Of a stretch of DNA of 64,000 nucleotides, positions 1 through 63,590 are shown in pieces. Source of the DNA: Malacoraja senta (taxonomy: Eukaryota); the NCBI GenBank assembly GCA_038087875.1, contig CM075992.1:9798001-9862000 (forward strand). The letters are read 5' to 3'. The notes under the pieces were generated by a model. That model saw only the letters and a program-made list of their open reading frames with translations. It was not told the origin of the DNA and did not search any database. How positions within the stretch are numbered: the first letter of the stretch is position 1; every line of letters starts with the position of its first letter. The position numbers and the translations under genes are program-made.

Positions 1-136
1 GAAAATTAAGGAATAAATTACCTAGAGCTGTTAGGAGCATTTCATGGCCTTAAAGCTTATTGCACTAATATGGGAAATGTGTATAATCAGGTACAGGTTG
101 ACAATACTACAGCTGTAGCATACCTAAATCACATGG

Positions 137-598
137 GTGGTATCAAATCAGAATCATGTGATAGATTGGCAAATGAAATTTGGACCTGGTGTATTGCCAG
201 GAAAAATTTGGCTGTCAGCAATATATTTACCAGGTAAATTTAACTTAATTGCAGTCAAAATATCACGTAAATTTAATGATAATACAGAATGGATGTTAAA
301 TCAGGAAATATTTACACAAATTGTAACACAATTTGGAATGCCAGAGATTGATTTGTTTGCATCAAGACTAAACCACCAATTGCCTAAATATGTGTCATGG
401 GAACCTGATCCTGGTGCAGTAGCGGTGGATGCTTTCTCGCTACATTGGGGTGGTATGTTTCTGTATGCATTTCCACCATTTTGTTTAATCAACAGATGCA
501 TACAGAAAATTAAACAAGACTCAGCCTCAGGGATTTTGGTAGTACCAGATTGGCCTACACAGCTATGGTACCCACTGGTGTTAAAAATGATCAAATAA
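137..598 (+). pseudogene. DIRS RNase H C-terminus plus DNA N6-adenine methyltransferase-like (MT) domain, frameshifted
   Basis: IDLFASRLNHQLPKYVSW...DAFSLHW...LYAFPPF...LVVPDWPTQLWYP. Confidence 0.85.
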
Positions 599-599
599 A

Positions 600-1495
600 C
601 CCTTATGATTAGAAGCAGTACATTTCCTATATAAAGAAATGGGAGGTGTTTTGTTCAGGAAAGAATATTGCATATAACACAGCAGAAATTTCAGATGTAA
701 TAGAGTTTCTTTAAACTCTATACTACAAATTAAAATTAAGTTATAGTGCAATCAATACTGCACGAAGTGCACTCTCTGCATATTTAAGCAGTGAATCAGA
801 ACAAAATCCAATAGGATCACATCCTTGGGTCTGTAGGTTTATGAAAGGAATTTTCAACTCCAATCCTCCTAGACCTAGGTATACAAAAATCTGGAATGTA
901 AAAGATGTACTGATGCTGCTGAGGGATTGGAATCCTAAATCACCATGAAATTGGTTATGCTCATGGCATTAGTTTCAGCTCAGAGTTCAAACATTACAGA
1001 AACTAAGAATTGACAGAATGAAGGTAGGGGCGAATGCCGTTACATTCTATGTCTATGATTTACTGAAGCAAAGTAGACCTGGGATCACGGGATGTAAGTT
1101 GGAGTTTTCAACATATCCTAGCAGTTCCACGGCTATGTGTAGTAACATATGTAAAATGTTACATAGAAACAACAAGAATCTTAAGAGGCACAGAATTGGC
1201 ATTTTTTATTAGTCATAAAAAGCCTCATAAGAAAGTGTCAACACAGACAATTTCAAGATGGTTGAAACAGGTGTTGATTTATTCAGGTATTGATACTGAT
1301 AAATTTAGATCACATTCCTCCAGGGCGGCATCAACATCGGCGGCCAGGGATTCGGATGTGCCAATAGACCTTATCCTCGCGGCCGCAGGATGGGCAAGTG
1401 AACAGATGTTTCACAAGTATTACCATAAGGAGATTAAAGATCTCGGGGTGTTTAGTGATGCCGTGCTGGATTCAGTATTAAATCCCCCATTATAA
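600..1495 (+). pseudogene. DIRS tyrosine recombinase, frameshifted
   Basis: YSAINTARSALS, SRWLK, catalytic H-x-x-R (HSSR) and AAGW...FHKYY; homologous to 22856-23832. Confidence 0.88.
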
Positions 1496-5530: not shown

Positions 5531-5684
5531 AACAAGGAACAGTGGGTCAGGCAGCATCTGTGGAGGGAATGGGGAGTGAGTTGAAGAGAGTGATGGGTCT
5601 ATCAGAGAGCCAACACAGGCAAAATGAGACAAGAGCCTTCTGGCTGCAGTTGTTCATCTTTTCCGCTCATGTTCTCTGTGGTTT

Positions 5685-6352: not shown

Positions 6353-7380
6353 ATGTGTAGGAAGGAACTGCAGATGCTGGTTTAAACCAAAGATAGACAG
6401 AAAATGCTGGAGTAACTCAGCTGGACAGGCAGCATCTCTGGAGAGAAGGAATAGGTGATGTTTCTGGTGAGAGTCAGTGAGAGTCGGGGAAAAGGGAAAT
6501 GAGAGGGAAAGTTGGTGATGTAAGGAGATATGGAACAAATTAATGAAGGACATTCAAGAAAGTAACGGTGATCAAGGAAACAGGCCAATGTTAGCTGTGG
6601 GCTAAGTGTGAACGAGTTACAGGCAATGAGACTCACCAGGACGACATTGAGGTGGGGGAGGGATGGAGAGAGAGGGGATCAAGGGTTACTTGAAGTTAGA
6701 GAAATCAATATTCATATCGTTGGGTTGTAAACTGCACAAATGAAATATGAGATGCTGTTCCTCCAATTTGTGTTGGGCCTCACTCTGACAATGGAGGAGG
6801 CCCAGGACAGAAATGTCAGTGTGGGAATGGGAAGATGAATTGAATGTTTGGCAACCAGGAGATCAGGTAGGTCCAGGCGGACTGAGCGAAGGTGTTCAGT
6901 GAAACGGCCGCCCAGTCTACGTTTGATTTCGCTGACGAACAACGGATACAGTAGATGAGGTTGGAGGAGGTGCAATTGGACCTCTGTCTAACCTGAAAGG
7001 ACTGTCAGGGTCCCTGGACAGAGTCGAGGGAGGAGATATAGGTGTTGCATCTCCTGCAGTTGCAGGGGAAGGTACCTGGGCAGGTGGTGGTTTGGGGGGG
7101 GGGGGGAAGGGTTGTTAACCAAGGAGTTGCAGAGGGAATGGTCTCTGGGGAAGGCGGAAAGGGGTGGAGATGGGAATAAGGGACTAGTGGTGTGATCCCG
7201 TTGGAGGTGGCAAAAATGTCGGAGAATTATGTGTTGTATGTTACGGCTAATGAGGTGAAAGGTGAGGACAAGGGGGCTCTGTCTCTGTTGCAACTGGTGG
7301 AAGGGGAAGCAAGAGCGGAGCTACAGGATACTGAGGAGACACCTGTGAGGGCCTCATCTAAGATGGGAGAGGGGAACCCC
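6353..7380 (-). mobile_element. Penelope-like element 3' part (GIY-YIG endonuclease remnant plus pseudo-LTR)
   Basis: PLVLTFH...; KRRLGGRFTEHLRSVR; homologous to 15462-16148. Confidence 0.85.
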
Positions 7381-9559: not shown

Positions 9560-10875
9560 AAGGCTGGAGGGTGGCAAATGTTATGCCTCTATTCAAGAAG
9601 AGCTAAGGAAAAACCTGGGGAACTACAGACTAGTGAGCATCCATGGTCAGAAAGTTACTGGAGAGTATTCTGAGGGATAAAACGAAGATAGGCACAAAAT
9701 GCTGGAGTAACTCAGTGGGATAGGCAGCATCTCTGGAGAGAAGGAATAGGTGACGTTTCAGGTCGAGATCCTTGAAGAATTATTTATTGTTATTATACAA
9801 GAGTCGAGACCCTTGAAGAATTATTATTGAAGAAGGGTCTCAACCCAAAACATCACCCATTCCTTCTCTCCAGAGATGCTGCCTGCCCCGCTGAGTTACT
9901 CCAGCATTTTGTGTCTATCTTCAATTTAAACCTACATCTTCAGTTCCTTCCTACACATTCTGAGGGGTAAGTTACATATGCATTTGGATAGACAAGGGCT
10001 GATAAGGAATAGTCAGCGAGGTTTTGTACATGGGAGTTTGTGTCTCACAAATCTGATATGTGTTTTTTGACAATGTGACCAAAAAGGTAGATGGGGGCAG
10101 AGCTGTAGATGTTGTGTATATGGATATCAGGAAAACACCTACACAGTAAATGGTAGGCCTCTGGGGAGTGTTGTAGAGCAGAGGGATCTAAGGTACATGG
10201 TTCCTTGAAACTTTCATCACAGGTAGATAAGGTGGTCAAAAAGATTTTCGGCACTTTGGCCTTCATCAGTCACAGTATTGAGTATAGAAGTCGGGAGGTC
10301 ATGTAGCAGTTATATAAGACGTAGGTGAGGCCACATTTGGAGAATTGTGTTCAGTTTAGGGCACCATGTTATAGAAAAGATGTTGTCAAGCTGGAAAGGG
10401 GGCAGAGAAGATTTACAAGGCTGTTGCCAGGACTTAAGGGCCTGAGCTATAGGGAGAAGTTCAGCAGGCGAGGATTATTCCTTGGAGCGCAGGAGGATGA
10501 GGGGTGATCTTATAGAGGTGTATAAAATCATGCGAGGAATAGATTGGGTAAACACACAGAGTTTCTTGTCCAGAATGGGGGAATCGGGAACCAGAGGACA
10601 TAGGTTCAAGATTTAATAGGAAGCAGAGGTGTAATTTTCTCACACAAAGGGTGATGGGTGTATGGAACAAGATGCGGTAGGAGGTAGTTGAGGAAGGTAC
10701 TATCATAATGTATGTATCGTAAACATTTAGACAAGTACATGGATAGGATAGGTTTAGAGGGATATGGCCCAAATACAGGAAAGTGGGACTAGTGTAGATG
10801 GGGTATGTTGGTTGGTGTAGGCAAGTTGGGCCGATGGGCCTGTTTCCACACTGACTACATGATTCTATGTCTATG
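9560..10875 (+). mobile_element. Old CR1-like LINE with internal deletions and a Penelope-derived insert
   Basis: VRPHLENCVQF, KLERGQRRFTRLLPG; CR1 3' UTR. Confidence 0.8.
9680..9957. mobile_element. Palindromic Penelope pseudo-LTR pair
   Basis: AAAATGCTGGAGTAACTCAG...CAGCATCTCTGGAGAG and its reverse complement. Confidence 0.75.
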
Positions 10876-15128: not shown

Positions 15129-15252
15129 TTTTCAGATGACTGCATAATTTGTGGTTTCTGACAGTGAGAAAAGTTGTCAAAGTATGCAGCGTGATGTAGG
15201 TCAGCCACAGAAATGGGCGGAGAAATAGTCAATCGAGTTTAATCTGAGCAAA

Positions 15253-16146
15253 GGCACACAAAAATGCTGGAGAAACTCAGCGGGTGCAGCAGCATCTATG
15301 GAGCGAAGGAAATAGGTAACATTTCGGGCCGAAACCCTTCTTCAGACTGATAGGGGGTGGGGAGAAGAAAGGAAAAAAGGAAAAGGCAAAGGAGGAGCCC
15401 GAGGGCTGGGGGAGGGGAGGAGACAACCAGATGGCTGATGAAGGGGAGGGGACAGCCAGGGCTAGCAGAATTGGGAGAATTCAATGTTCAGGCCACCAGG
15501 ATGTAGACTGCCCAAGCGGAATATGAGGTGCATTTCCTCCAATTTACGGTGTTGCTCGCTGTGGCCATGGAGGAGACCCAGGACAGAGAGGTCAGATACG
15601 GAATGGGAGGGGGAGTTGAAGTGCTGAGCCACCGGGAGTTCAGGTTGGTTATTGCGGACCGACCGGAGGTGTTCGGCGAAACGATCGCCAAGCCTCCGCT
15701 TGGTCTCACCGATGTAGATCAGCTGGCATCTAGAGCAGCGAATGCAATAGATGAGGTTGGAGGAGATGCAGGTGAACCTCTGTCGCACCTGGAACGACTG
15801 CTTGGATCCTTGAATGGAGTGGAGGGGGGAGGTGAAGGGACAAGTGTTGCATCTCTTGCGGTTGCAAGGGAAAGTACCAGGGGAGGGGGTGGTATGGGAG
15901 GGAAGGGAAGAATTGACAAGGGAGTTACGGAGGGAGCGGTCTTTGCGGAAGGCAGACATGGGGGGAGATGGGAAGATGTGGCGAGTGGTGGGGTCACGTT
16001 GGAGGTGGCGAAACTGACGGAGGATTACTTGTTGTATGTGACGGCTGGTGGGGTGAAAGGTGAGGACTAGGGGGACTCTGCCTTTGTTGTGAGTGGGGGG
16101 ATGGGGAGAGAGAGAGCAGTGTTGCGGGGTATGGCAGAGACCCTGC
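15253..16146 (-). mobile_element. Penelope-like element 3' part with open GIY-YIG endonuclease frame and pseudo-LTR
   Basis: ORF 15462-16148: CNRKRCNTC zinc-binding region, NLIYCIRCSRCQLIYIGETKRRLGDRFAEH...GLN. Confidence 0.92.
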
Positions 16147-16169
16147 AAATGTGAGGTCTAGTAAGAGTG

Positions 16170-18436: not shown

Positions 18437-18581
18437 TGTTTAAGAAGGAACTGCAGATGCTGGAAAATCGAAGGTAGTCAAAAGTGCTGGAGAAACTCAG
18501 CAGGTGCGGAAGCATCTATGGAGCTCCATAGATGCTGTCTCACCCGCTGACTTTCTACAGCACTTTTGTCTACCTTTGATA
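18437..18581. mobile_element. Penelope pseudo-LTR fold-back with no spacer
   Basis: perfect 26-bp palindrome 18511-18536 with imperfect extended arms. Confidence 0.8.
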
Positions 18582-22855: not shown

Positions 22856-23832
22856 CTAGGAAACAGAACTTAAAATAAAATTGGTGAACACCCCGGTTTC
22901 GATAAGTGGTTTATTGTAAAACCGGTGAAATGTCAGTTCATTGGACCATCCTGCGGCCGCGAGGATATGGTCTAGAGGGACGTCCATTGCCCTCGCTGCT
23001 GACGTTGATGCCGCCCTGGTGGAGTGAGATTTAAAATTGTCAGTATTAACTCCTGCAAAAACCAATACTTGTTTCAGCCATCTTGAGATGGTCTGGACGG
23101 ACACTTTCCCATGTGTTTTTTTGTGGCTAACAAACAATTGTACTTCCGATCCTCTGAGGCCCTTGGTGACCTCAATATAAGACAACAAGTGCGCCACCAC
23201 ACACAGTCGTAAATCCGTGGGATACGGTGACAGTAAAAGCTTGACTCCTGACACCCCTGGTCTGCTCTGTTTTATGAGATCATATATGTAGAACAGAACG
23301 TCATTTCCAGATGACACCATCCTGTCCAGTCTCAATTTGTGCAGAGACTCTGCGCTGACACTAACGCCATGAGCATAACCAACTTCAAGGCAATCTTTAC
23401 CAAAGACAAGGATGTGGCTGGACCCCACTGTCGAAGCAGCGTGAGTACCACACTGACATCCCAGATTTCTGTATATCTAGGCATGGGGGGATTGGAATTA
23501 AAAACACCCTTCATAAATCGAGATATTAACGGATGAGATCCTACAGACTGTAGTTCTGACCCCAAACATAAATACGACGACAGAGCACTCCTGGCAGTAT
23601 TGATGGCACTATAACTTAAGCCGTCATCAAAATACAATTTGGAGAGAAACTCTAACACATCTGGGATGGAAACTGTGTGGTAAGTAATTTTCTCTTTTAT
23701 GCAAAATGCCTCCCACTTCCTGATATGAGAGAGATACTGCTTTTTTGTACTATCCCTCAAGGATGATGTGATGATGTCCACGGTGCGATTGGATAATCCC
23801 AGACCCAGGTATGGCCTCCTTAAAACCTGCAA
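22856..23832 (-). pseudogene. DIRS tyrosine recombinase in two overlapping frames
   Basis: STKKQYLSHIRKW, YSAINTARSALS, LCVV, SHSTRAAS, AAGWS, FHRFY. Confidence 0.9.
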
Positions 23833-25620
23833 ATTAACAAATTAATACGATCATACAACAGGTATTGATCTCCAGTCACAGGGTTTACTAATAGGTTATG
23901 ACATTTTGGAACCACCATAATTGGCTGAGTTATAATGTCCGAAATGAGAGGGAACCATGGCTGTGTAGGCCAGTCGGGCACCACCAGAACTCCTGAAGCG
24001 GAGTCCTGCTTTATTTTAGTCAAGCACCGACTGATGATGCAGAATGGGGGAAATGCATATATAAACAGTCCTCCCCAATGTAGCGCAAAAGCGTCCACCG
24101 CTACTGCCCCCGTGTCTGGTTCCTATGAAACATACTACGGCACCTGGTGATTGAGTCTGCATGCAAACAAATCAATATCTGGCATCCCATATCGAACAAC
24201 AATATTATTAAATACTTCATGATTCAACATCCATTCTGTGTTGTCATTGAATTTGCGTGATCTGGTGTCTGCCACCATGTTGAACCTGCCCGGCAAGTAA
24301 ACAGCTGAAACCCAAATGTTTCTTTTAATGCACCAATGCCAAATAAGGTTAGCCAATCTGTCACAAGATTGTGACTTGATTCCACCCATATAATTCACAT
24401 ACGCCACTGCTGTGGTGTTGTCAATCTGAATCTGAACATGTAAGTGATGCTTGGTGGTACAATAAGCCTTAAGCCCATAAAATGCTCCCAGTAACTATAA
24501 ATAATTAATTCCATGTGATTGAAGAATAAATGCCTCATGCACATTCCATCTGCCCTCACAGTTAGAGATGGTATCAGTAGCCCCCCAACCTACGGCACTA
24601 ACGTCAGTCTGTAAAACAACTGAAGGTGCTTCAATCAAAATTTTGGTGGAACAATTCGAAATGTTCCTAATCCACCATTGAATTTCAGCAATTGCTTCGA
24701 TTGCCTGCTATAATGGCCTGCATGATTCCTTAGTGCCTGTACCTTTGATCTCTGTAAGTGTTGGTAATGCAAAGGTCCATACTGTGCAGCTGGAAAGGCT
24801 GCTACCAATTTGCCAATCAAGCTGGCCACATGCCTAATTGAAGGTGATTGCTCTGCTAGGAGCTTGATACAGCCTTCAATTAAATCTAATCTCTTGCCCT
24901 TGGGTAGAGTTACAGACATGTGAGTTGAATTAATTGTGAAACCAGATAATCAATAACTTTAACCGGTATCAATTTTGATTTAGTTGGATGAATTAGAAAC
25001 CCCAGACTCTCAAACATGAGTTTAACAGCTTCAACAGATAACCCAGCTGCTTCCCGAGTTTTTCCAATTATTAAGATATCATCTAAATAAGCCATTACAA
25101 TATGACCCTGAACCCGGAGTAGCCCCAAAGCTGGTTTCAGCAGTTTTGTAAATAATCTAGGAGCTGAGGTTAACCCATTAGGCAGTGCTTTAAATTGCCA
25201 CAGCTGCCTCATCCAACTAAATTTCAAATACCTCCAATGGTCTTTATGAACAGGCACTGAGTAATATTAAGATCTATAAATGGCATATAACACCCTTTGG
25301 AAATCAATTGCTTGGCAGTGGCAAAAGTTTCCATCTTGAAATTCCTATACTGCATAAACGGATTAAGGTCCGTCAGGTCCTAAATGATCCGACTACCACC
25401 ATCTTTCTTTGGTCTGGGAAATATGTTAGATACGAATTGATGAGGTTGCCAAACCGTCTTTTCAATTACACCTTTGAGATACAATTTCTCAATTTAAGCC
25501 TGAACCTCCAAGTTCTCTGTTTGTGAGAACACAAGTGCCCTTCTGGGTGAATGTTGAGTAGGTGGACACAAATTTGCAATGAATTAAATGTTAAACCCTT
25601 GTATTGCTTGCAGTATGAAC
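23820..25620 (-). pseudogene. DIRS reverse transcriptase/RNase H/methyltransferase polyprotein remnant
   Basis: YLKFSW...LPNGLTSAPRLFTKLLKP...MAYLDDILI; TDVSAVGWG; DNTTAVAYVN; DLFACRLNHQ; YAFPPF. Confidence 0.9.
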
Positions 25621-41452: not shown

Positions 41453-42256
41453 CCATACCGTCCTCCTATATTATTATCATTCAGATGAAGGTTCCCGACC
41501 CGAAACATCACCTATCCATGTTCTCCAGAGATGCTGCCTCACCCTCCCCAATCTTTGCACATCCCAAATCCTGGACTTTCCACTCATCACTTTAATTTCA
41601 TGTTCCATGTATCTTCTTGTGTTTTATGGCTATTGGCAGACCAATTTCCCTCCTGGGATAAATAAAGTTTGATTGTATCATATTGTATCATATGGTATCG
41701 TATCTGGGGCTTATAACACGCCAGGTGCAGGGCCAAGTGGCCTGCCAGTTGGGTTTATGGACACTTGTTGCTGGGCCTCTGGTCCTGGAATTGGGATCAA
41801 TGGCAACTTTGAGCCTCTGGTCCTGGAGTGATGCAGACTGGTCTCTCAGCCGTTTGAGCCAATGGGCAAATGGAACGAGCTTGGATGGGGCATCTTGGTC
41901 AGCATGGATGAATGTAAACACAATAAGCTGGAGTAACTCAGCGGGACAGGCAATATCACTGAAGAAGGGTCGTGACCCGAAATGTCACCCATTCCTTCTC
42001 TGCAGAGGTGCTGCTTGTCCTCCTGAGTTACTCCAGCTTTTTGTGTCTATCTTCAGTTTAAACCAGCATCTGCAGTTTCTTCCTGCACAAATAGTCTGAA
42101 GGGGTTGTTTCCATACTGAATGGTTCTATGATTCAATGACCTGTTCTACTCATGTATGGTTTGATTGCACTCATCATGTATTGTATTATTTACCTGGATT
42201 GCACGCAAACAAAGTTGTTCTCTGTATAATAAATGACTACCAGATGTGGGTGGTAT

Positions 42257-43430: not shown

Positions 43431-44373
43431 GAGGTCTATTTAGTAAATAGAACATAAAACAGTACAGTACAGGAACAGGCCCTTCGGTCCACAATGTCTG
43501 TGCCAAACATGATGCCAAGACCAACTCTTATTTGCCTGCACATAATCCGTACACCTCTTTTCCCTGCATATCCATGTATCTATCCAAAAACCTCCTAAAT
43601 GCTACTATCGTATCTAGCTCCACCATTACCTCTGACAGCACGTTCCAGGCACCCACCACTCTGTGTAGAAAACTTGCCCCACACATCTCCTTTAAACTTT
43701 GCCCCTCTCACCATAAAGCTCTGCCCTCTAGTGATTGATGTTTCCATCCTGAGAATAAAACATCTTCAGTAGTAACTCAGCGGGTCAGGAAGCATCGGTG
43801 AATATGTAGAGGTGCCATTTCAGGGTGGGTCCCTTCTTCAGGCATATTCTGTTCCGTCAGCATTATTCTGATCGTGCAATATGGTGACATTGAGCGAAGG
43901 TTAACGTGGAATGGGATAGTCCAGTTAATCAGTGTCTCAATCCCACTAATAGACGGTGAATGATATGCAGCATAACCGTCTGTAGAAGGGTCTCAGCCCG
44001 AAACGTCACCTGTTGCTTCTCTCCAGAGATGCTGCCTGACCCATTGAGTTACTCCAGCATTTGGTGTCTACCTGCAGCATCTGTCTCCGCTCTTTCAGTT
44101 ATTGTTGGTACAATTCCCATCAAAAATCTTGCAATTCCAATGTTGAAATATTGTAATCAATGCAGTTTCAGTAGCGGTTTTGCAGACAGAGTTCGTAAAT
44201 GACCGAGGGTAATAGATCTTTTCAGCAATAAAGTAGTTCACAGCTATCAGGGAGAGAGCACGGTTATAAGGGAAAACATTCAAAGAAAAGAAAATTGGAA
44301 GAAAGGACAAATGATATGGAGAATAATTCTTAAGCAAAGGTATAGATAACAGTGAGACTGGGTGGGCACTTAA

Positions 44374-44662: not shown

Positions 44663-45133
44663 CTTGTCAGTGATTGTATGTGAGATGCACGAGAGAGCGA
44701 CTAAAGATATGGAGAATAAATAATAATAACGAGGCTAAAATAGAGAATAATGTGGAACAAAGGTCTGGTAATGCAGTAAGTAAAGAGTACTAGTTAGACT
44801 AATAATTATTTACGCAACAGATGTGCATGCAAAGATGTGCACCTGGAAAATAACACATGAATAATACGTTATTATTATGTGTAGTACCTCGATTCACAAA
44901 CTGGAAATCTGTGGCTTTTATGCTGGCCAATCCCTGTAATGTTGCTATATTGTCACTGATGGTTGATGAATATAATGTGTTTTCATATCAAATGAATCAT
45001 ATAAGGCAGATATGGTGTTGAGATTTTGGAAACTTGCTCAGCAGAGCCAGAACTCACAACTGAACAAAGGTAGACAAAAGTGCTGGAGAAACTCAGCGGG
45101 TGAGGCAGCATCTATGGAGCGAAGGAAATAGGC

Positions 45134-45161
45134 AACGTTTCGGGCCGAAACCCTTCTTCAG
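45134..45161 (-). ncRNA. Minimal hammerhead-ribozyme-like core in a Penelope pseudo-LTR
   Basis: minus strand reads CTGAAGA-A-GGGT-TTCG-GCCC-GAAA-CGTT; stem I is weak. Confidence 0.5.
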
Positions 45162-45941
45162 ACTGATGTAGCGTGGGGAGGAGGGGGGGGGGGGGGTTGG
45201 AAGAAGAAAGGAAGAGGAGGAGCCAGAGGGCTGAGCGAGAGCTGAGAAGGGGAGGTGACAATAAGGGGTACCGGAAATTGGAGGTCAATGTTTATGCTGC
45301 TGGGGTATAAACTGCCCAAGCGAAATATGAGGTGCTGTTCCTCCACTTTCCGGTGGTGCTCACTTGGGCCATGGAGGAGGCCCAGGACAGAAAGGTCGGA
45401 TTCGGAATGGGAGGGGGAGTTGAAGTGCTGAGCCACCAGGAGATCAGGTTGGTTATTGCGGACCGAGCGGAGGTGTTCGGGGAAATGATCGCCAAGCCTA
45501 CGCTTGGTCTCACCGATGTAGATCAGCTGACATCCAGAGCAGCGGATGCAATAGATGAGGTTGGAGGAGGTGCAGGTGAACCTCTGTCGCACCTGGAATG
45601 ACTGCTTGGGTCCTTGAATGGAGTCGAGGGGGGAGGTAAAGCGACAAGTGTAGCATTGTGCGACAGAAAATGTGAGACAGACACAAAAAGCTGGAGTAAC
45701 TCAGCGGGTCAGGCAGCATCAGGTCCAGAGAAAAGGAATGGGTGACGTTTCGGGTCGAGGCCCATCTTCGGACTGAGAGTCCAGGGGAGAGGGAAACGAG
45801 AAATATGAAAAGGTACCTGGAAGAAATGAATGACAGACATGCTAAAGGAATCACAGAGGGAGAGCTGTGAGGGAGGGCTCTCCCTCAGCCCTTTGGCCCC
45901 TCCTCTTCCTTTCTTCTTCGCGCCCCCCCCACCCTACATCA

Positions 45942-45969
45942 CTGAAGAAGGGTTTTGGCCCGAAACGTT
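45942..45969 (+). ncRNA. Minimal hammerhead-ribozyme-like core in a Penelope pseudo-LTR
   Basis: CTGAAGA-A-GGGT-TTTG-GCCC-GAAA-CGTT. Confidence 0.45.
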
Positions 45970-46360
45970 GCCTATTTCCTTCGCTCCATAGATGCTGCCG
46001 CACCCGCTGAGTTTCTCCAGCACTTTTGTCTACCAAGTGTATGTTCTTACCTGTTAAAAAATGCCCAAATGGTCAATATTTGCGCTGTAAATAAATTGTG
46101 GAGGGTGACAGCGCTCTGAACCAAATGCTCTAGTATCTTTGCTCTGAACCCGAGCACCAAGGTAAGAGGCTGAAGGAGCGCATCCCTCGGGACAGCCCCC
46201 ACTCTCCCCCCGGGGTCAGCGCTGTCTGGTCACGGCCGCCCTCCACCCCGTCTCCCCCTGTGCGGCCGCACTGTCACGGGCTGTGGGTCGGCAGCGCCCA
46301 CACTCGGGGCCAGGTGGAGCGGGGCCGCGGCTCCGGGCAGCGGACACACGGGGAGGAAAA

Positions 46361-53885: not shown

Positions 53886-54200
53886 CTGATTCTGAGGTAT
53901 AGAATCAGCCACAGTCTCACTGAATGGTGGTGCAGCATCAAGGGGCTGAATGGCCTCTTTCTGCATCCATTTTCCATAGTCTTAATCAGTACTGGGGATC
54001 ATGACAGAAGCCTCCTCGTGGCGATCCCCGGACACGATGCACCCTGTGACGCGTCGGGCGACCAATTCTGTCAACATGTTGGATGAAGACGGAAGCCAAC
54101 AGCGAGCTACATCGTCTGACACACGAGCGAATGAATCAGTACTAACCCCAACTACAATAATCATTCTGCACGCTGTATCTCTGGCTCCACTACAGACATC

Positions 54201-54851: not shown

Positions 54852-55491
54852 AGGGCCTGTCCCACTTGGCTGTCTTTCGCGCGCCATTTACGCAACCTGC
54901 TAGCGTGTGGGTAACGCATGGGTAGCGTGTGGGTAGCGCGGGGACGGGCGCATGGAGTGGTGTGGAGGAGTGTGGACTTCGTCCTGAACGAAGTCTTCGC
55001 GCGCCACCGGGCCTGTCGCGGAACTGACGGCCAAAGTGGGACAGGCCCAAGACCCTGGCGCGATGCAACGTCTCACCTCCAACAGCAGCAGAAGCAGGCA
55101 AACGATCGCCGAGCTCGGCCTGGGCCTCACGGCCGTTGCGGATCCGGATCCGCCCCCACTTCTACTCCCAGAGCGGGGGGGGGGGCCAAGAAAATTGAAG
55201 ATAGACACAAAATGCTGGAGTAACTCAGCGGGACCGGCAGCATCTCTGGAGAGAAGGAATGGATGACGTTTCGGGTCAAGACCCTTCTTTCAGACTGAAG
55301 AAACATCACCCATTGCTTCTCTCCAGAGATGTTGCCGGGCTAGCTGAGTTACTCCTGCATTTTGTGTCCATCTTCAAATGACGTCACGCGCTCCAGACGG
55401 CTGTGCGGCGCATGATGACGCGCGCAACTCTCGCGGCACCGTTGCGCGACCGTCACTACCGGCCTGTGACGGCCCAAGTGGGACAGGCCCT
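54852..55491. mobile_element. PIF/Harbinger-like MITE with a nested Penelope palindrome (55195-55376)
   Basis: TIR AGGGCCTGTCCCACTTGG; TAA duplication at 54849-54851 and 55492-55494. Confidence 0.82.
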
Positions 55492-56286: not shown

Positions 56287-56756
56287 CTATCATACACACA
56301 CTAGGGACAATGTGCAATTTTACTGCTAATTAACCTACAAACCTATGTGTCTTTGGAGTGCAGGAGGAAACCGGAGCTTGACACAAGATGCTGGAGTAAC
56401 TCAGCGGGACAGGCAGCATCTCGGGAGAGAGAGGAATGGGTGACGTTTCAGGTTGAGACCCTTCTTCAGACTCATATAGATGAAGTCTGAAGAAGGGTTT
56501 CAACCTGAAACGTCATGCATTCCTTCTCTCCTGTGATGCTGCCTCTCCCACTGAATTACGCCAGCATCTTGTGTCTATCTTCGGTTTAAACCAGCATCTG
56601 CAGTTCCTGCCTACACAGGAAACCGGAGCTCCTGGAGAAAACCCATGCAGTAACAGGGAGAATGTTTCAACTCCGTACAGACAGCACCCGTGGTCAGGAT
56701 GGAACCCGGGTGTCTGGCGCTGTGAGGCAGCAACTCTACCGCTGCGCCACCGTGCT
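56287..56756 (-). mobile_element. SINE interrupted by a palindromic Penelope pseudo-LTR pair (about 56379-56617)
   Basis: AGGAAACCGGAGCT duplicated around the insert; inverted arms. Confidence 0.8.
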
Positions 56757-62185: not shown

Positions 62186-63590
62186 GACCCTTCTTCAGAT
62201 TGATTGCAGTAAAGGGGAGAAAGCTGGAAAAGAGATTATGGTGAGACAAAGCCTGGCAAGTGATAGGTGGGAGCTGGCAAGTAGTTGAGTCTGAAGAATG
62301 GGGGCAGGATGGTGGGAGAAATGGGTGTGCTCTGGGGTAGGGGAAATGGGAATGGGGGGGTTGGGAAGAGCGGGATGTTACCTGAAATTTGAGAATTCAA
62401 TCATCACACCATTGAGCAGTAAGCTACCCATACAGAATATGAGGTGCTGTTCCTCCAATTTGCATGAGGCTTCACTCTCAACATTCTCACTCACAACATT
62501 CTCAATGGAGACACAAGGAACTTCAGATGATGGAATCTTGCATAAAACACAAAGTGCTGGAGGAAGTCATGTGTCCACACATATTGAATGGACCACACAT
62601 ATTGAAGCAACGACCAAGAAAGCACACCAACGCCTCTATTTCTTTAGAAGGCTTAGGATGTTCGGCATGTCCCCTACAACTCTCACCAACTTCCACAGAT
62701 GCACCATAGAAAGCATTTTCTCAGTATGCATCACACCTTGCTTTGGGAACAGCTCCATCCAAGAGCGCAAGAAATTGTAGCAAATTGTGGACGCAGCCCA
62801 CACCATCACACAAACCAACTTCCCTTCTATTGACTCCATTTATGCCTCACTCTGCCTCGGCAAGACCATCAGCATAATCTAGGATGTGTTGCACCCTGGA
62901 AACTCCCTCTTCTCCCCTCTCTCATCAAGCAAAAGGTACAGAAGCGTGAAAACACACACCTCCAGATTCCGGGACAGTTTGTTCCCAGCTGGTATCAGGC
63001 AACTGAATCATCCTACCAACAACTGCAGAGCAGTCCTGAACTACTATCTACCTCTTTGGTGACCCTCAGACTATCCTTGATCGGACTTTGCTGGCTTTAC
63101 CCTACACCAAACATTATGCCCTTAGAATGTATCTATACACTGTAAATGCCTCGATTTTAATCATGTATTGTCTTTCTGCTGGCTGGTTAGCACGCAACAA
63201 AATCTTTTCACTGTAGGTCGGTACACGTGACAATAAACTAAACTGAAACTGAAACACTCTGGAAATGGGGGAGGCCCAGGGCAGAAAGGTCAGTGTGGGA
63301 ATGAGACCATCTACTGGTCTTTACTTTTGCTGCCCAATGTACAGTGGGAGCTGTCAATACACTAGTTGAGGTTGAAAGAGGTGCATGTGAACCTCCACCT
63401 CAGCTGGAAGAGCTGCTGGAGGCAAGGGAGGGGGTGTAGAGACAGGAAATACATCACCTGCAACAGCAAGGGAATATACTTGTGGTGAGGGTTGTGAGGG
63501 GTCATTCCCTCCACAGATGTTGCCTGACCCATGCAGATCTTCAAGCACTTTGTGTTTCATGCATGATTCCAACATCTGCAGTTCCTTGTG
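62186..63590 (-). mobile_element. Decayed Penelope-like fragment interrupted by a Rex-like LINE
   Basis: AATATGAGGTGCTGTTCCTCCAATTT near 62440 resumes as GAGGCCCAGG near 63270. Confidence 0.6.
62570..63254 (+). mobile_element. Rex1/Babar-like LINE 3' part
   Basis: KKAHQRLYFFRRLRMFGMS...FHRCTIESI; (AAACTG)n tail. Confidence 0.85.

What the first reader, a model, noticed from the sequence alone, without database searches (positions are those of the whole stretch)
45134..45969. Minimal hammerhead-ribozyme-like cores dispersed by Penelope repeats
Seen: CTGAAGA-A-GGGT-N4-RCCY-GAAA-CGT(C/T) at 45134-45161 (-), 45942-45969 (+), about 56443-56470 (-) and about 56488-56515 (+), with variants at about 41959, 55264, 9826 and 45744. 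Stem II pairing is kept while the loop varies (TTCG, TTTG, CGTG, CTCA, TTCA). Established: Penelope-like elements carry minimal type I hammerheads whose palindromic stem III (ACGU) works as a dimer. Caveats: there is an extra A after CUGAAGA and only about 2 bp of stem I. Inference: an atypical or relic ribozyme at very high density, in both orientations inside a probable intron.
Basis: partly seen in the sequence, partly recalled or inferred. Interest (0 to 1): 0.7.

Follow-up and report, generated by a model that had tools for sequence, protein, structure and literature searches.

The report
Minimal hammerheads in Penelope retrotransposon ends
These are the tiny self-cutting RNA motifs that Penelope-type jumping genes are known to carry, seen here as many broken, decaying copies in a shark- or ray-like genome, so the finding is real but mostly ordinary.

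Summary
The motif is real. It is the minimal type I hammerhead of a Penelope-like retrotransposon (PLE) with a Neptune/Nematis-type zinc-finger linker, in what is inferred to be a cartilaginous-fish genome.

The copy at 45134-45161(-) lies about 100 nt behind a GIY-YIG endonuclease fragment. 45942-45969(+) is its inverted arm. The window holds 26 truncated copies; all 7 close pairs are head-to-head, 3 with target-site duplications.

The 'extra A' is a published hallmark of PLE hammerheads, and 2-bp stems I have precedents. In 20 of 67 distant relatives the same core follows the endonuclease, with covarying stems, so selection acted on the element lineage.

The copies here look dead. Loop variation is mostly CpG decay, the core is not significantly better kept (p=0.11), and only 1 of 12 copies spanning the motif keeps every feature. 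A read-through RNA would pair the two arms. No host exon was found, so 'intron' is unsupported.

One lead: 8 of 14 copies reaching the hammerhead begin at its 5' edge, at an initiator-like TCAGTC. They may be run-off cDNAs of uncleaved transcripts. Verdict: a new member of a known kind.

The parts
45134..45161 (-). Minimal type I hammerhead, subfamily A: CUGAAGA, extra A, stem II GGGU/GCCC with loop UUCG, GAAA, C-G-U, U17. Stem I is 2 pairs (45162-45163 with 45132-45133). Predicted cut between 45134 and 45133. The only copy of 12 with every feature intact.
45067..45133 (-). 3' terminus of the PLE repeat behind the hammerhead; no tail extension on this copy
45162..45265 (-). Pyrimidine-rich 3' UTR / pseudo-LTR between the ORF end and the hammerhead. 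It ends in TCAGT, initiator-like and also acceptor-like (CAG).
   Evidence: the promoter and splice readings are inference
45266..45653 (-). 5'-truncated GIY-YIG endonuclease fragment (YCIRCSGCQLIYIGETKRR). It is broken near its end by a short deletion and loss of the stop; 80% amino-acid identity to the longer copy at 15462-16157.
45675..45850 (-). Second, subfamily-B 3'-end copy between the two arms. Its hammerhead at 45744-45771 has U4C, U in place of the extra A, and one broken stem II pair. The upstream boundary is approximate.
45877..46034 (+). Inverted arm, 150 of 158 aligned bases identical to 45069-45242. It holds the hammerhead core 45942-45969, which lacks the stem I 5' strand.
15237..16157 (-). 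Longest PLE copy in the window: 231-aa open ORF end with CX4CxxC linker and GIY-YIG domain, UTR, and hammerhead 15318-15345 (ACGU decayed to AUGU)
56375..56617 (.). Head-to-head inverted pair (cores 56442-56469(-) and 56487-56514(+), both with G10.1-U11.1). It has a tail on one arm and a 14-bp target-site duplication, and sits inside another repeat. Ends approximate.
9678..9957 (.). Head-to-head inverted pair, tail on one arm, 10-bp target-site duplication; core decayed
18437..18576 (.). Head-to-head inverted pair truncated downstream of the hammerhead, palindromic junction, tail on one arm, 8-bp duplication
41909..42089 (.). Head-to-head inverted pair with overlapping junction; core at 41959 has no stem I
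43771..44110 (.). Head-to-head inverted pair; both cores mutated
55192..55376 (.). Head-to-head inverted pair joined at the CAGTCTG quasi-palindrome; core 55265-55293(-) has a one-base insertion
6354..7041 (-). Decayed PLE 3' end with endonuclease remnant and internally deleted hammerhead. Further solo copies lie at 5540, 11515, 16773, 21843, 29873, 41481, 49259, 61042 and 63502.

Best explanation
The motif is the minimal type I hammerhead in the pseudo-LTR of an endonuclease-bearing Penelope-like element with a Neptune/Nematis-type linker. SHOWN: it lies about 100 nt behind the GIY-YIG ORF and about 65 nt (about 100 with the optional tail) before the element's 3' end. It was spread as short 5'-truncated copies, often as head-to-head inverted pairs made in one insertion. 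The fold has been under selection in the element lineage. INFERRED from PLE biochemistry: in tandem transcripts of an intact element two motifs pair through ACGU:ACGU to supply stem III and cut after GUH, weakly and probably only with the element's protein. The copies that were inserted came from uncleaved RNA, since they keep sequence on both sides of the cut site. INFERRED for this locus: the copies are passive and decay neutrally. In any read-through RNA the arms at 45069-45242 and 45877-46034 form one long duplex that buries the hammerhead.
For: GIY-YIG Pfam hit for the 15-kb copy (E 1.8e-4, just under the curated cut-off). 11 longer homologues, 5 from sharks and rays at 59-65% identity, and 3 scanned with RT followed by GIY-YIG. 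C-X4-C-xx-C linker and EN Cys/His columns. 26 copies; 7 of 7 close pairs head-to-head, (1/4)^7 = 6e-5. Flanking duplications of 10, 8 and 14 bp at 3 of 7 pairs. Tail in 10 of 26 copies, on one arm in 4 of 7 pairs and never on both. These match PMC8557442 and PMC3846280 (passages). In relatives, 20 of 67 loci have the motif 100-244 nt after the EN match, 0 of 67 on the reverse strand, 0.05 in shuffles; all 20 have the extra A, which the descriptor did not require. On 13 chosen rows, 5 of 7 pairs change on both sides; covariation 0.59 against 0.24 shuffled and at most 0.18 slid. Neutral decay: core 5/90 against downstream 36/303 substitutions, p=0.11; CpG columns 8/36; 1 of 12 fully intact. Arm-to-arm pairing probability about 1 on both strands. 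Protein-assisted, dispensable cleavage and uncleaved templates in the anole PLE (PMC11167929).
Against: No cleavage was measured. The double-hammerhead fold of the best copy (-7.1 kcal/mol) is far less stable than an alternative duplex (-25.0), and monomer folds are no better than shuffles. Stem I is 2 bp here against 3-6 bp in 18 of 20 relatives, so this lineage's ribozyme may be weaker or lost. 47 of 67 relatives had no strict hit. The core trend (5.6% against 11.9%) points toward conservation and the test is small, so some constraint on copies is not excluded; in a looser alignment of all 26 copies it was 8/153 against 147/1390. P0001 itself had no Pfam hit. No full-length element lies in the window. 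4 of 7 pairs show no duplication, and an 8-bp shared word arises in about 9% of random window pairs.
Confidence: 0.88

Rival explanations
1. The hammerhead of this lineage is vestigial even in the master elements. With a 2-bp stem I and a self-complementary stem II region it no longer cuts, and the sequence is kept as promoter or protein-binding signal.
For: The hammerhead dimer is about 18 kcal/mol above the best alternative duplex. Stem I is shorter than in 18 of 20 relatives. Cleavage was not needed for insertion in the anole element (PMC11167929). No peak of copy ends at the cut site appeared among the 24 of about 3,012 loose-end rows shown.
Against: All four A-versus-B subfamily differences inside the motif fall on tolerated positions: loop, U-G/U-A pair, H17, and stem I U-G/U-A. 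That is only four changes and is not significant alone. 2-bp stems I are published for other PLE hammerheads. Low stability without protein is expected for this class.
Confidence: 0.25
2. Individual copies, above all 45134-45161(-), act as ribozymes in host transcripts. For example, the intact A core could cut the GUC site of the B copy 600 nt upstream on the same strand.
For: One copy keeps every feature, and the same-strand B copy keeps ACGU-C and a matching 2-bp stem I; the heterodimer can be drawn (-5.9 kcal/mol).
Against: The inverted arm pairs with the whole motif at probability about 1. The alternative duplex is -22.0. 11 of 12 copies carry a defect. No host exon was found in 267 screened reading frames.
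Confidence: 0.05
3. The repeats are a non-autonomous retrozyme or SINE that multiplies through small circular RNAs.
For: Most copies are short, and retrozymes derived from PLE repeats are reported in a chondrichthyan (bioRxiv 10.64898/2026.07.22.740005, passages).
Against: None of the 7 close pairs is head-to-tail. 5' ends vary and run into the EN ORF. Copies are not bounded by the cut site.
Confidence: 0.05
4. The resemblance to a hammerhead is chance.
For: A loose descriptor also caught a false positive in this window, 10269(-), which is the antisense of a LINE reading frame. Rfam hammerhead models gave no match up to E 5.
Against: Position, strand, extra A and covarying stems are shared with relatives at about 45% protein identity. 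The motif fits the published consensus letter for letter.
Confidence: 0.02

Closest known systems
Minimal hammerheads (min-HHR) of metazoan Penelope-like elements, Cervera and de la Pena 2014 (PMC4209133)
   Same: Consensus CUGANGAH G..C GAAAN NU H, extra nucleotide between 9 and 10.1, G10.1-C11.1, palindromic 15.2-16.2, no stem III, location in the pseudo-LTR, thousands of solo truncated copies, pairs on opposite strands 100-700 bp apart
   Different: Stem II is 4 bp and stem I 2 bp, at the short end of the published range. 'shark', 'skate', 'Callorhinchus' and 'Leucoraja' do not occur in the searchable supplement (file 1 not searched). Density is high: 6 family hits of my descriptor in 64 kb.
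Poseidon element of Anolis carolinensis (PAc), Frangieh et al. 2024 (PMC11167929)
   Same: Hammerhead close to the element's 3' end, two alternative 3' ends (tail), copies made from uncleaved RNA; cutting and extension of both strands would explain inverted pairs
   Different: Poseidon lacks the zinc-finger linker seen here (PMC8557442). In PAc the ORF starts inside the hammerhead; no such start was established here.
Neptune / Nematis EN+ PLE clades (PMC8557442)
   Same: C-terminal GIY-YIG after RT in homologues, CX2-5CxxC linker, 5' truncation, inverted arm, tail on one end
   Different: Clade not fixed by RT phylogeny here; no RT sequence of this family in the window
Drosophila virilis Penelope hammerhead and internal promoter (PMC4209133, PMC2377424)
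   Same: 2-bp stem I; transcription start inside the pseudo-LTR upstream of the hammerhead; an AG just before stem I
   Different: Penelope has a 75-bp intron 46 bp after the start and a 2-nt insertion in stem III. Here no convincing donor site was seen by eye, and copy ends suggest a start only about 3 nt before the core.
Non-LTR (animal) retrozymes
   Same: Type I hammerhead that needs a dimer; PLE origin proposed
   Different: Retrozymes are head-to-tail arrays; here close copies are inverted

Membership tests
PLE minimal type I hammerhead | Core boxes CUGANGA and GAAA, and U-H at the cut site | tested here: met
   45134-45161(-); intact in 6 of 12 spanning copies
PLE minimal type I hammerhead | Unpaired nucleotide between A9 and G10.1 | tested here: met
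   Present in all 6 family hits in the window and 20 of 20 relatives; defined in PMC4209133
PLE minimal type I hammerhead | Stem II closed by G10.1-C11.1 | tested here: met
   G-C in 9 of 12 copies, G-U by CpG decay in 3; G-C in 11 of 13 aligned rows
PLE minimal type I hammerhead | Palindromic 15.1-16.1 (ACGU) in place of stem III | tested here: met
   CG kept in 7 of 12 copies, TG in 3, CA in 2
PLE minimal type I hammerhead | Stem I closing the junction | tested here: met
   2 bp at 45134-45161, within the published range; absent at 45942 and 41959; covaries across relatives
PLE minimal type I hammerhead | Self-cleavage as a dimer or with protein | not testable with these tools
   Only folding energies, which do not favour the dimer
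EN+ Penelope-like element | C-terminal GIY-YIG endonuclease behind an RT | tested here: met
   EN in the window; RT then EN in homologues P0009-P0011. The RT itself is not in the window copies.
EN+ Penelope-like element | 5'-truncated copies, inverted arm at the 5' end, optional 30-40-bp tail at one end | tested here: met
EN+ Penelope-like element | Full-length ORF between two direct pseudo-LTRs | not testable with these tools
   No whole genome held; none in the window
Neptune clade | CX2-5CxxC linker before the EN | tested here: met
   CNRKRCNTC in the 15-kb copy; shared with Nematis and Naiad, and the C-terminal EN in homologues excludes Naiad
Neptune clade | Placement by RT phylogeny (Neptune versus Nematis) | not tested
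   No reference RT set fetched
Non-LTR retrozyme | Head-to-tail tandem units each with a hammerhead | tested here: not met
   0 of 7 close pairs are in the same orientation; tested in this window only
Rfam hammerhead families | Match to a covariance model | tested here: not met
   No hammerhead family among 12 matches to E 5; expected for a motif without stem III (inference)

The most novel reading that the evidence does not exclude
The short copies are not random truncations but complete run-off cDNAs. Transcription would start at the A of TCAGTC, 3 nt before C3. The RT would prime internally about 95-130 nt downstream, at the core end or the tail end, and run off the 5' end of the uncleaved RNA, inserting a 'strong-stop-like' unit that is little more than the hammerhead. 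This would explain the 2-bp stem I (only 3 nt of RNA precede the core) and the flood of solo hammerheads in PLE-rich genomes. It would make the ribozyme a conditional decapping switch about 30 nt after the cap. Support: 8 of 14 copies that reach the core begin within -5..+1 of C3 (p about 1e-5; 6 of 11 with pairs merged, p about 2e-4; window chosen after seeing the data). Loose ends pile up at 45163/45164 in 2 of 4 runs among the rows shown. 15 of 18 copies of one related family have TATAA(A/G) at -37 to -41, and one solo copy starts at about -6. Against: no TATA in the window's family or in 5 copies from other related families. The CAGTCTG quasi-palindrome or RT stalling at the structure could make the same hot spot. 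In D. virilis the start lies further upstream, before an intron.
Probability: 0.3. Interest if true: 0.55.

Novelty: new member of a known kind. Interest (0 to 1): 0.3.

Why it matters
Mainly as annotation: it extends PLE minimal hammerheads to a cartilaginous-fish family at high density. My searches did not find these in print, but one key paper was not held and a 2026 preprint covers one chondrichthyan. What PLE hammerheads do is still open. This family offers very many copies whose 5' ends can be mapped against the cut site and a candidate transcription start, which tests whether templates are uncleaved 5' parts of the transcript. The same window also holds a contrast case: an HDV-like ribozyme whose insertion begins exactly at its cut site.

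Tried and rejected
No whole genome is held, so there are no genome-wide counts or full-length element. Rfam found no hammerhead model match. The pattern scan of viral contigs gave 0 matches. Run search: no RNA holder listed, which says nothing about expression. The four runs laid were contigs and cannot show RNA ends; only 40 of 218 letter rows, 15 of 513 joints and 24 of about 3,012 loose ends were shown. Host gene: 267 of the 272 low-repeat reading frames were scanned, and the other 5. Searches gave four weak hits, all far below cut-off; the ALKBH8_N hit sits in a LINE-like frame. Short exons could be missed, so the intron claim is untested rather than refuted. A splice-acceptor reading of CAG|UCUGA was considered. 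No good donor was seen by eye and relatives lack the AG, so it was set aside. Monomer folding gave no significant z-scores. The hit at 10269(-) was rejected as LINE antisense. A relaxed one-mismatch core was too loose to use (51 of 80 loci on +, 25 on -). No target-site duplication was found around 45067-46034. Three look-ups of earlier scan findings returned nothing. Lunse et al. 2017 was not held; its dimer result is taken from a review passage.

Full report
OBSERVATION. Seven matches with up to two mismatches stand against none in 100 shuffles. Rfam gives no hammerhead match.

WHAT CARRIES IT. The motif is part of a repeat end of about 95 nt with 26 copies in the window, 14 on the minus and 12 on the plus strand. 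Upstream of the 45134 copy, on the same strand, is a reading frame for a GIY-YIG endonuclease fragment. A longer copy at 15462-16157 hits Pfam GIY-YIG at E 1.8e-4, just under the curated cut-off; the 45-kb fragment gives no Pfam hit of its own but is 80% identical to it. Its 11 longer homologues include five from sharks and rays at 59-65% identity, from which I infer a cartilaginous-fish genome. Three scanned homologues have RT followed by GIY-YIG. The linker CNRKRCNTC fits the CX2-5CxxC motif of Neptune and Nematis PLEs (PMC8557442, passages). I did not build an RT tree.

ANATOMY OF THE LOCUS. 45067-45653(-) is a 5'-truncated copy whose endonuclease end is broken. 45675-about 45850(-) is a second copy of another subfamily, with a mutated core. 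45877-46034(+) is an inverted arm, 150 of 158 aligned bases identical to the first copy but lacking the two bases that form stem I. Across the window all 7 neighbours within 260 nt are head-to-head. Three pairs are flanked by direct duplications of 10, 8 and 14 bp, so at least the 10- and 14-bp cases are single insertions; the 45-kb unit has none. A tail of about 35 nt occurs in 10 of 26 copies, on one arm in 4 of 7 pairs and never on both. These are the published PLE signatures (PMC8557442 and PMC3846280, passages). About 140,000 contigs from each of three public runs of unrecorded kind lay on the stretch before the tool saturated. That shows a very abundant family but is not a copy number; a few contigs show opposite-strand joints near 45166.

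IS IT A HAMMERHEAD? [quoted passage not shown] 2-bp stems I appear for D. virilis, Culex and Oikopleura (PMC4209133: main text parts 1-2 of 4, supplement file 2 part 2 of 3, file 1 not searchable). As an independent test I fetched 80 metagenome loci encoding relatives of the endonuclease at 38-51% identity. Of the 67 with at least 150 nt downstream, 20 carry the motif 100-244 nt after the match; none has it on the reverse strand and shuffles give 0.05. All 20 have the extra A and 18 have a stem I of 3-6 bp, neither required by the descriptor; 47 had no strict hit. Many of the 20 belong to one family, so they amount to about four lineages. On 13 hand-picked rows (4 window, 9 loci) 5 of 7 pairs change on both sides, with covariation 0.59 against 0.24 shuffled and at most 0.18 slid. 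The rows were chosen by a descriptor that demands stem II, so the stem I signal is the non-circular part.

ARE THESE COPIES CONSTRAINED? Probably not. Of 12 copies spanning the motif, 6 keep all core boxes, 4 of these keep ACGU, 3 of these keep stem I, and only 45134-45161 also keeps G10.1-C11.1. The loops CTCA, CTTG, TTTG and TTCA are CpG decays of CTCG or TTCG; three copies have G-U at 10.1-11.1 and five have lost the CG of stem III the same way. In 9 non-A copies, core substitutions were 5 of 90 against 36 of 303 downstream (Fisher p=0.11), and CpG columns 8 of 36. The trend is toward conservation and the sample is small; a looser alignment of all 26 copies gave 8 of 153 against 147 of 1390, with edge noise and subfamily differences included. 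In the public runs the only two variants shown inside the motif are a loop change and U-G to U-A in stem II, but only 40 of 218 rows were displayed. Folding 45040-46060 on either strand pairs the hammerhead with the antisense of the other arm at probability about 1. The double hammerhead of the best copy scores -7.1 kcal/mol against -25.0 for an alternative duplex. No host exon was detected, so 'intron' remains unshown.

MECHANISM. Shown: position, dispersal by PLE-type insertion, and selection on the fold in the lineage. Inferred from PMC11167929 (parts 1-2 of 4): the element protein nicks both strands of AT-rich DNA, primes internally at two adjacent sites (core end and tail end), copies uncleaved RNA and assists a weak ribozyme. 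Dimer cleavage comes from PMC4209133 and a review passage (PMC6765202); I could not read Lunse et al. 2017. I put this account at 0.88. The chance that the motif is non-catalytic even in masters is about 0.25, and that any copy here cuts a host RNA about 0.05.

A LEAD. Fourteen copies reach the core; 8 begin within -5..+1 of C3, where the hazard seen downstream predicts about 1.3 (6 of 11 with pairs merged; post hoc window; boundaries judged by eye). Loose ends with unrelated flanks pile up at 45163 (231 contigs, X19) and 45164 (47, X1). That place is not among the six rows shown for X20 or X22, and no peak shows at the cut site. The sequence there, TCAGTC, fits the initiator consensus (recalled), which occurs 1.3 times per kb of strand in this window, so it is not rare. 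In one related family 15 of 18 copies have TATAA(A/G) at -37 to -41 (chance 0.007 each, but the copies are related); 0 of 5 copies from other families and 0 of 5 window copies do. Internal promoters in pseudo-LTRs are known (PMC2377424, PMC3846280, passages). If transcription starts just before the core, the short copies are run-off cDNAs and stem I cannot be long. One search for this link found two papers, neither evidently on it; of one I saw only the listing. Fold-back at CAGTCTG or RT stalling are live alternatives. Probability 0.3.

NOVELTY. The class is known. Searches for shark, skate or chondrichthyan examples found no description of this family. However, a 2026 preprint reports hammerhead retrozymes in one chondrichthyan (passages; its supplements are closed), Lunse 2017 was unavailable, and repeat libraries could not be searched. 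PMC6155905 was seen as passages only. Verdict: new member of a known kind, interest 0.3.

Noticed in passing
window 53994-54133 (+); ribozyme 53994-54072: HDV-like (CPEB3-type) ribozyme: P1 7/7, P2 7/7, P3 3/3 pairs, L3 UCCUCGU, GG for P1.1, J4/2 CCAA (Rfam CPEB3 E 0.0017, below gathering score). It starts exactly at G1 behind a 10-bp target-site duplication (53984-53993 / 54134-54143). It is a 140-nt retro-insertion whose 5' end is the predicted cut site, probably a SINE-like element. Single copy in the window. Two searches (listings only) found no description in sharks or rays. Worth its own follow-up.
   Followed up: partly
window 128-1495 (+) and 22856-25526 (-): Two decayed elements with tyrosine-recombinase fragments (Pfam Phage_integrase) and, in the second, an RT fragment (RVT_1): DIRS-like retrotransposons by inference.
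   Followed up: partly
P0004 (zebra shark protein), last residues: The predicted protein reads through the 3' UTR and ends in SLMKGLRPKRQ, the translation expected of a CUGAUGAAGG...CCGAAACGUC motif. This hints at the same hammerhead, with U at free position 7, in another shark (inferred from peptide only).
   Followed up: no
window 10240-10269 (-): Chance hammerhead-like core on the antisense strand of a CR1-type LINE reading frame; a likely source of false positives in descriptor searches of such genomes (the CR1 label is recalled).
   Followed up: yes
window 41481-41544, 5540-5569, 63502-63586: Copies with different downstream sequence point to at least a third subfamily. The public runs show matching loose-end consensus sequences and a second tail type.
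   Followed up: no
L003 (3299 + and 804 -), L033 (3117 + and 2140 -): Related elements in metagenome loci are also flanked by inverted hammerhead-bearing arms.
   Followed up: partly
whole window: 49% of bases lie in repeats that recur within the window, including many LINE ORF2 fragments and a tRNA-type SINE (labels recalled).
   Followed up: no
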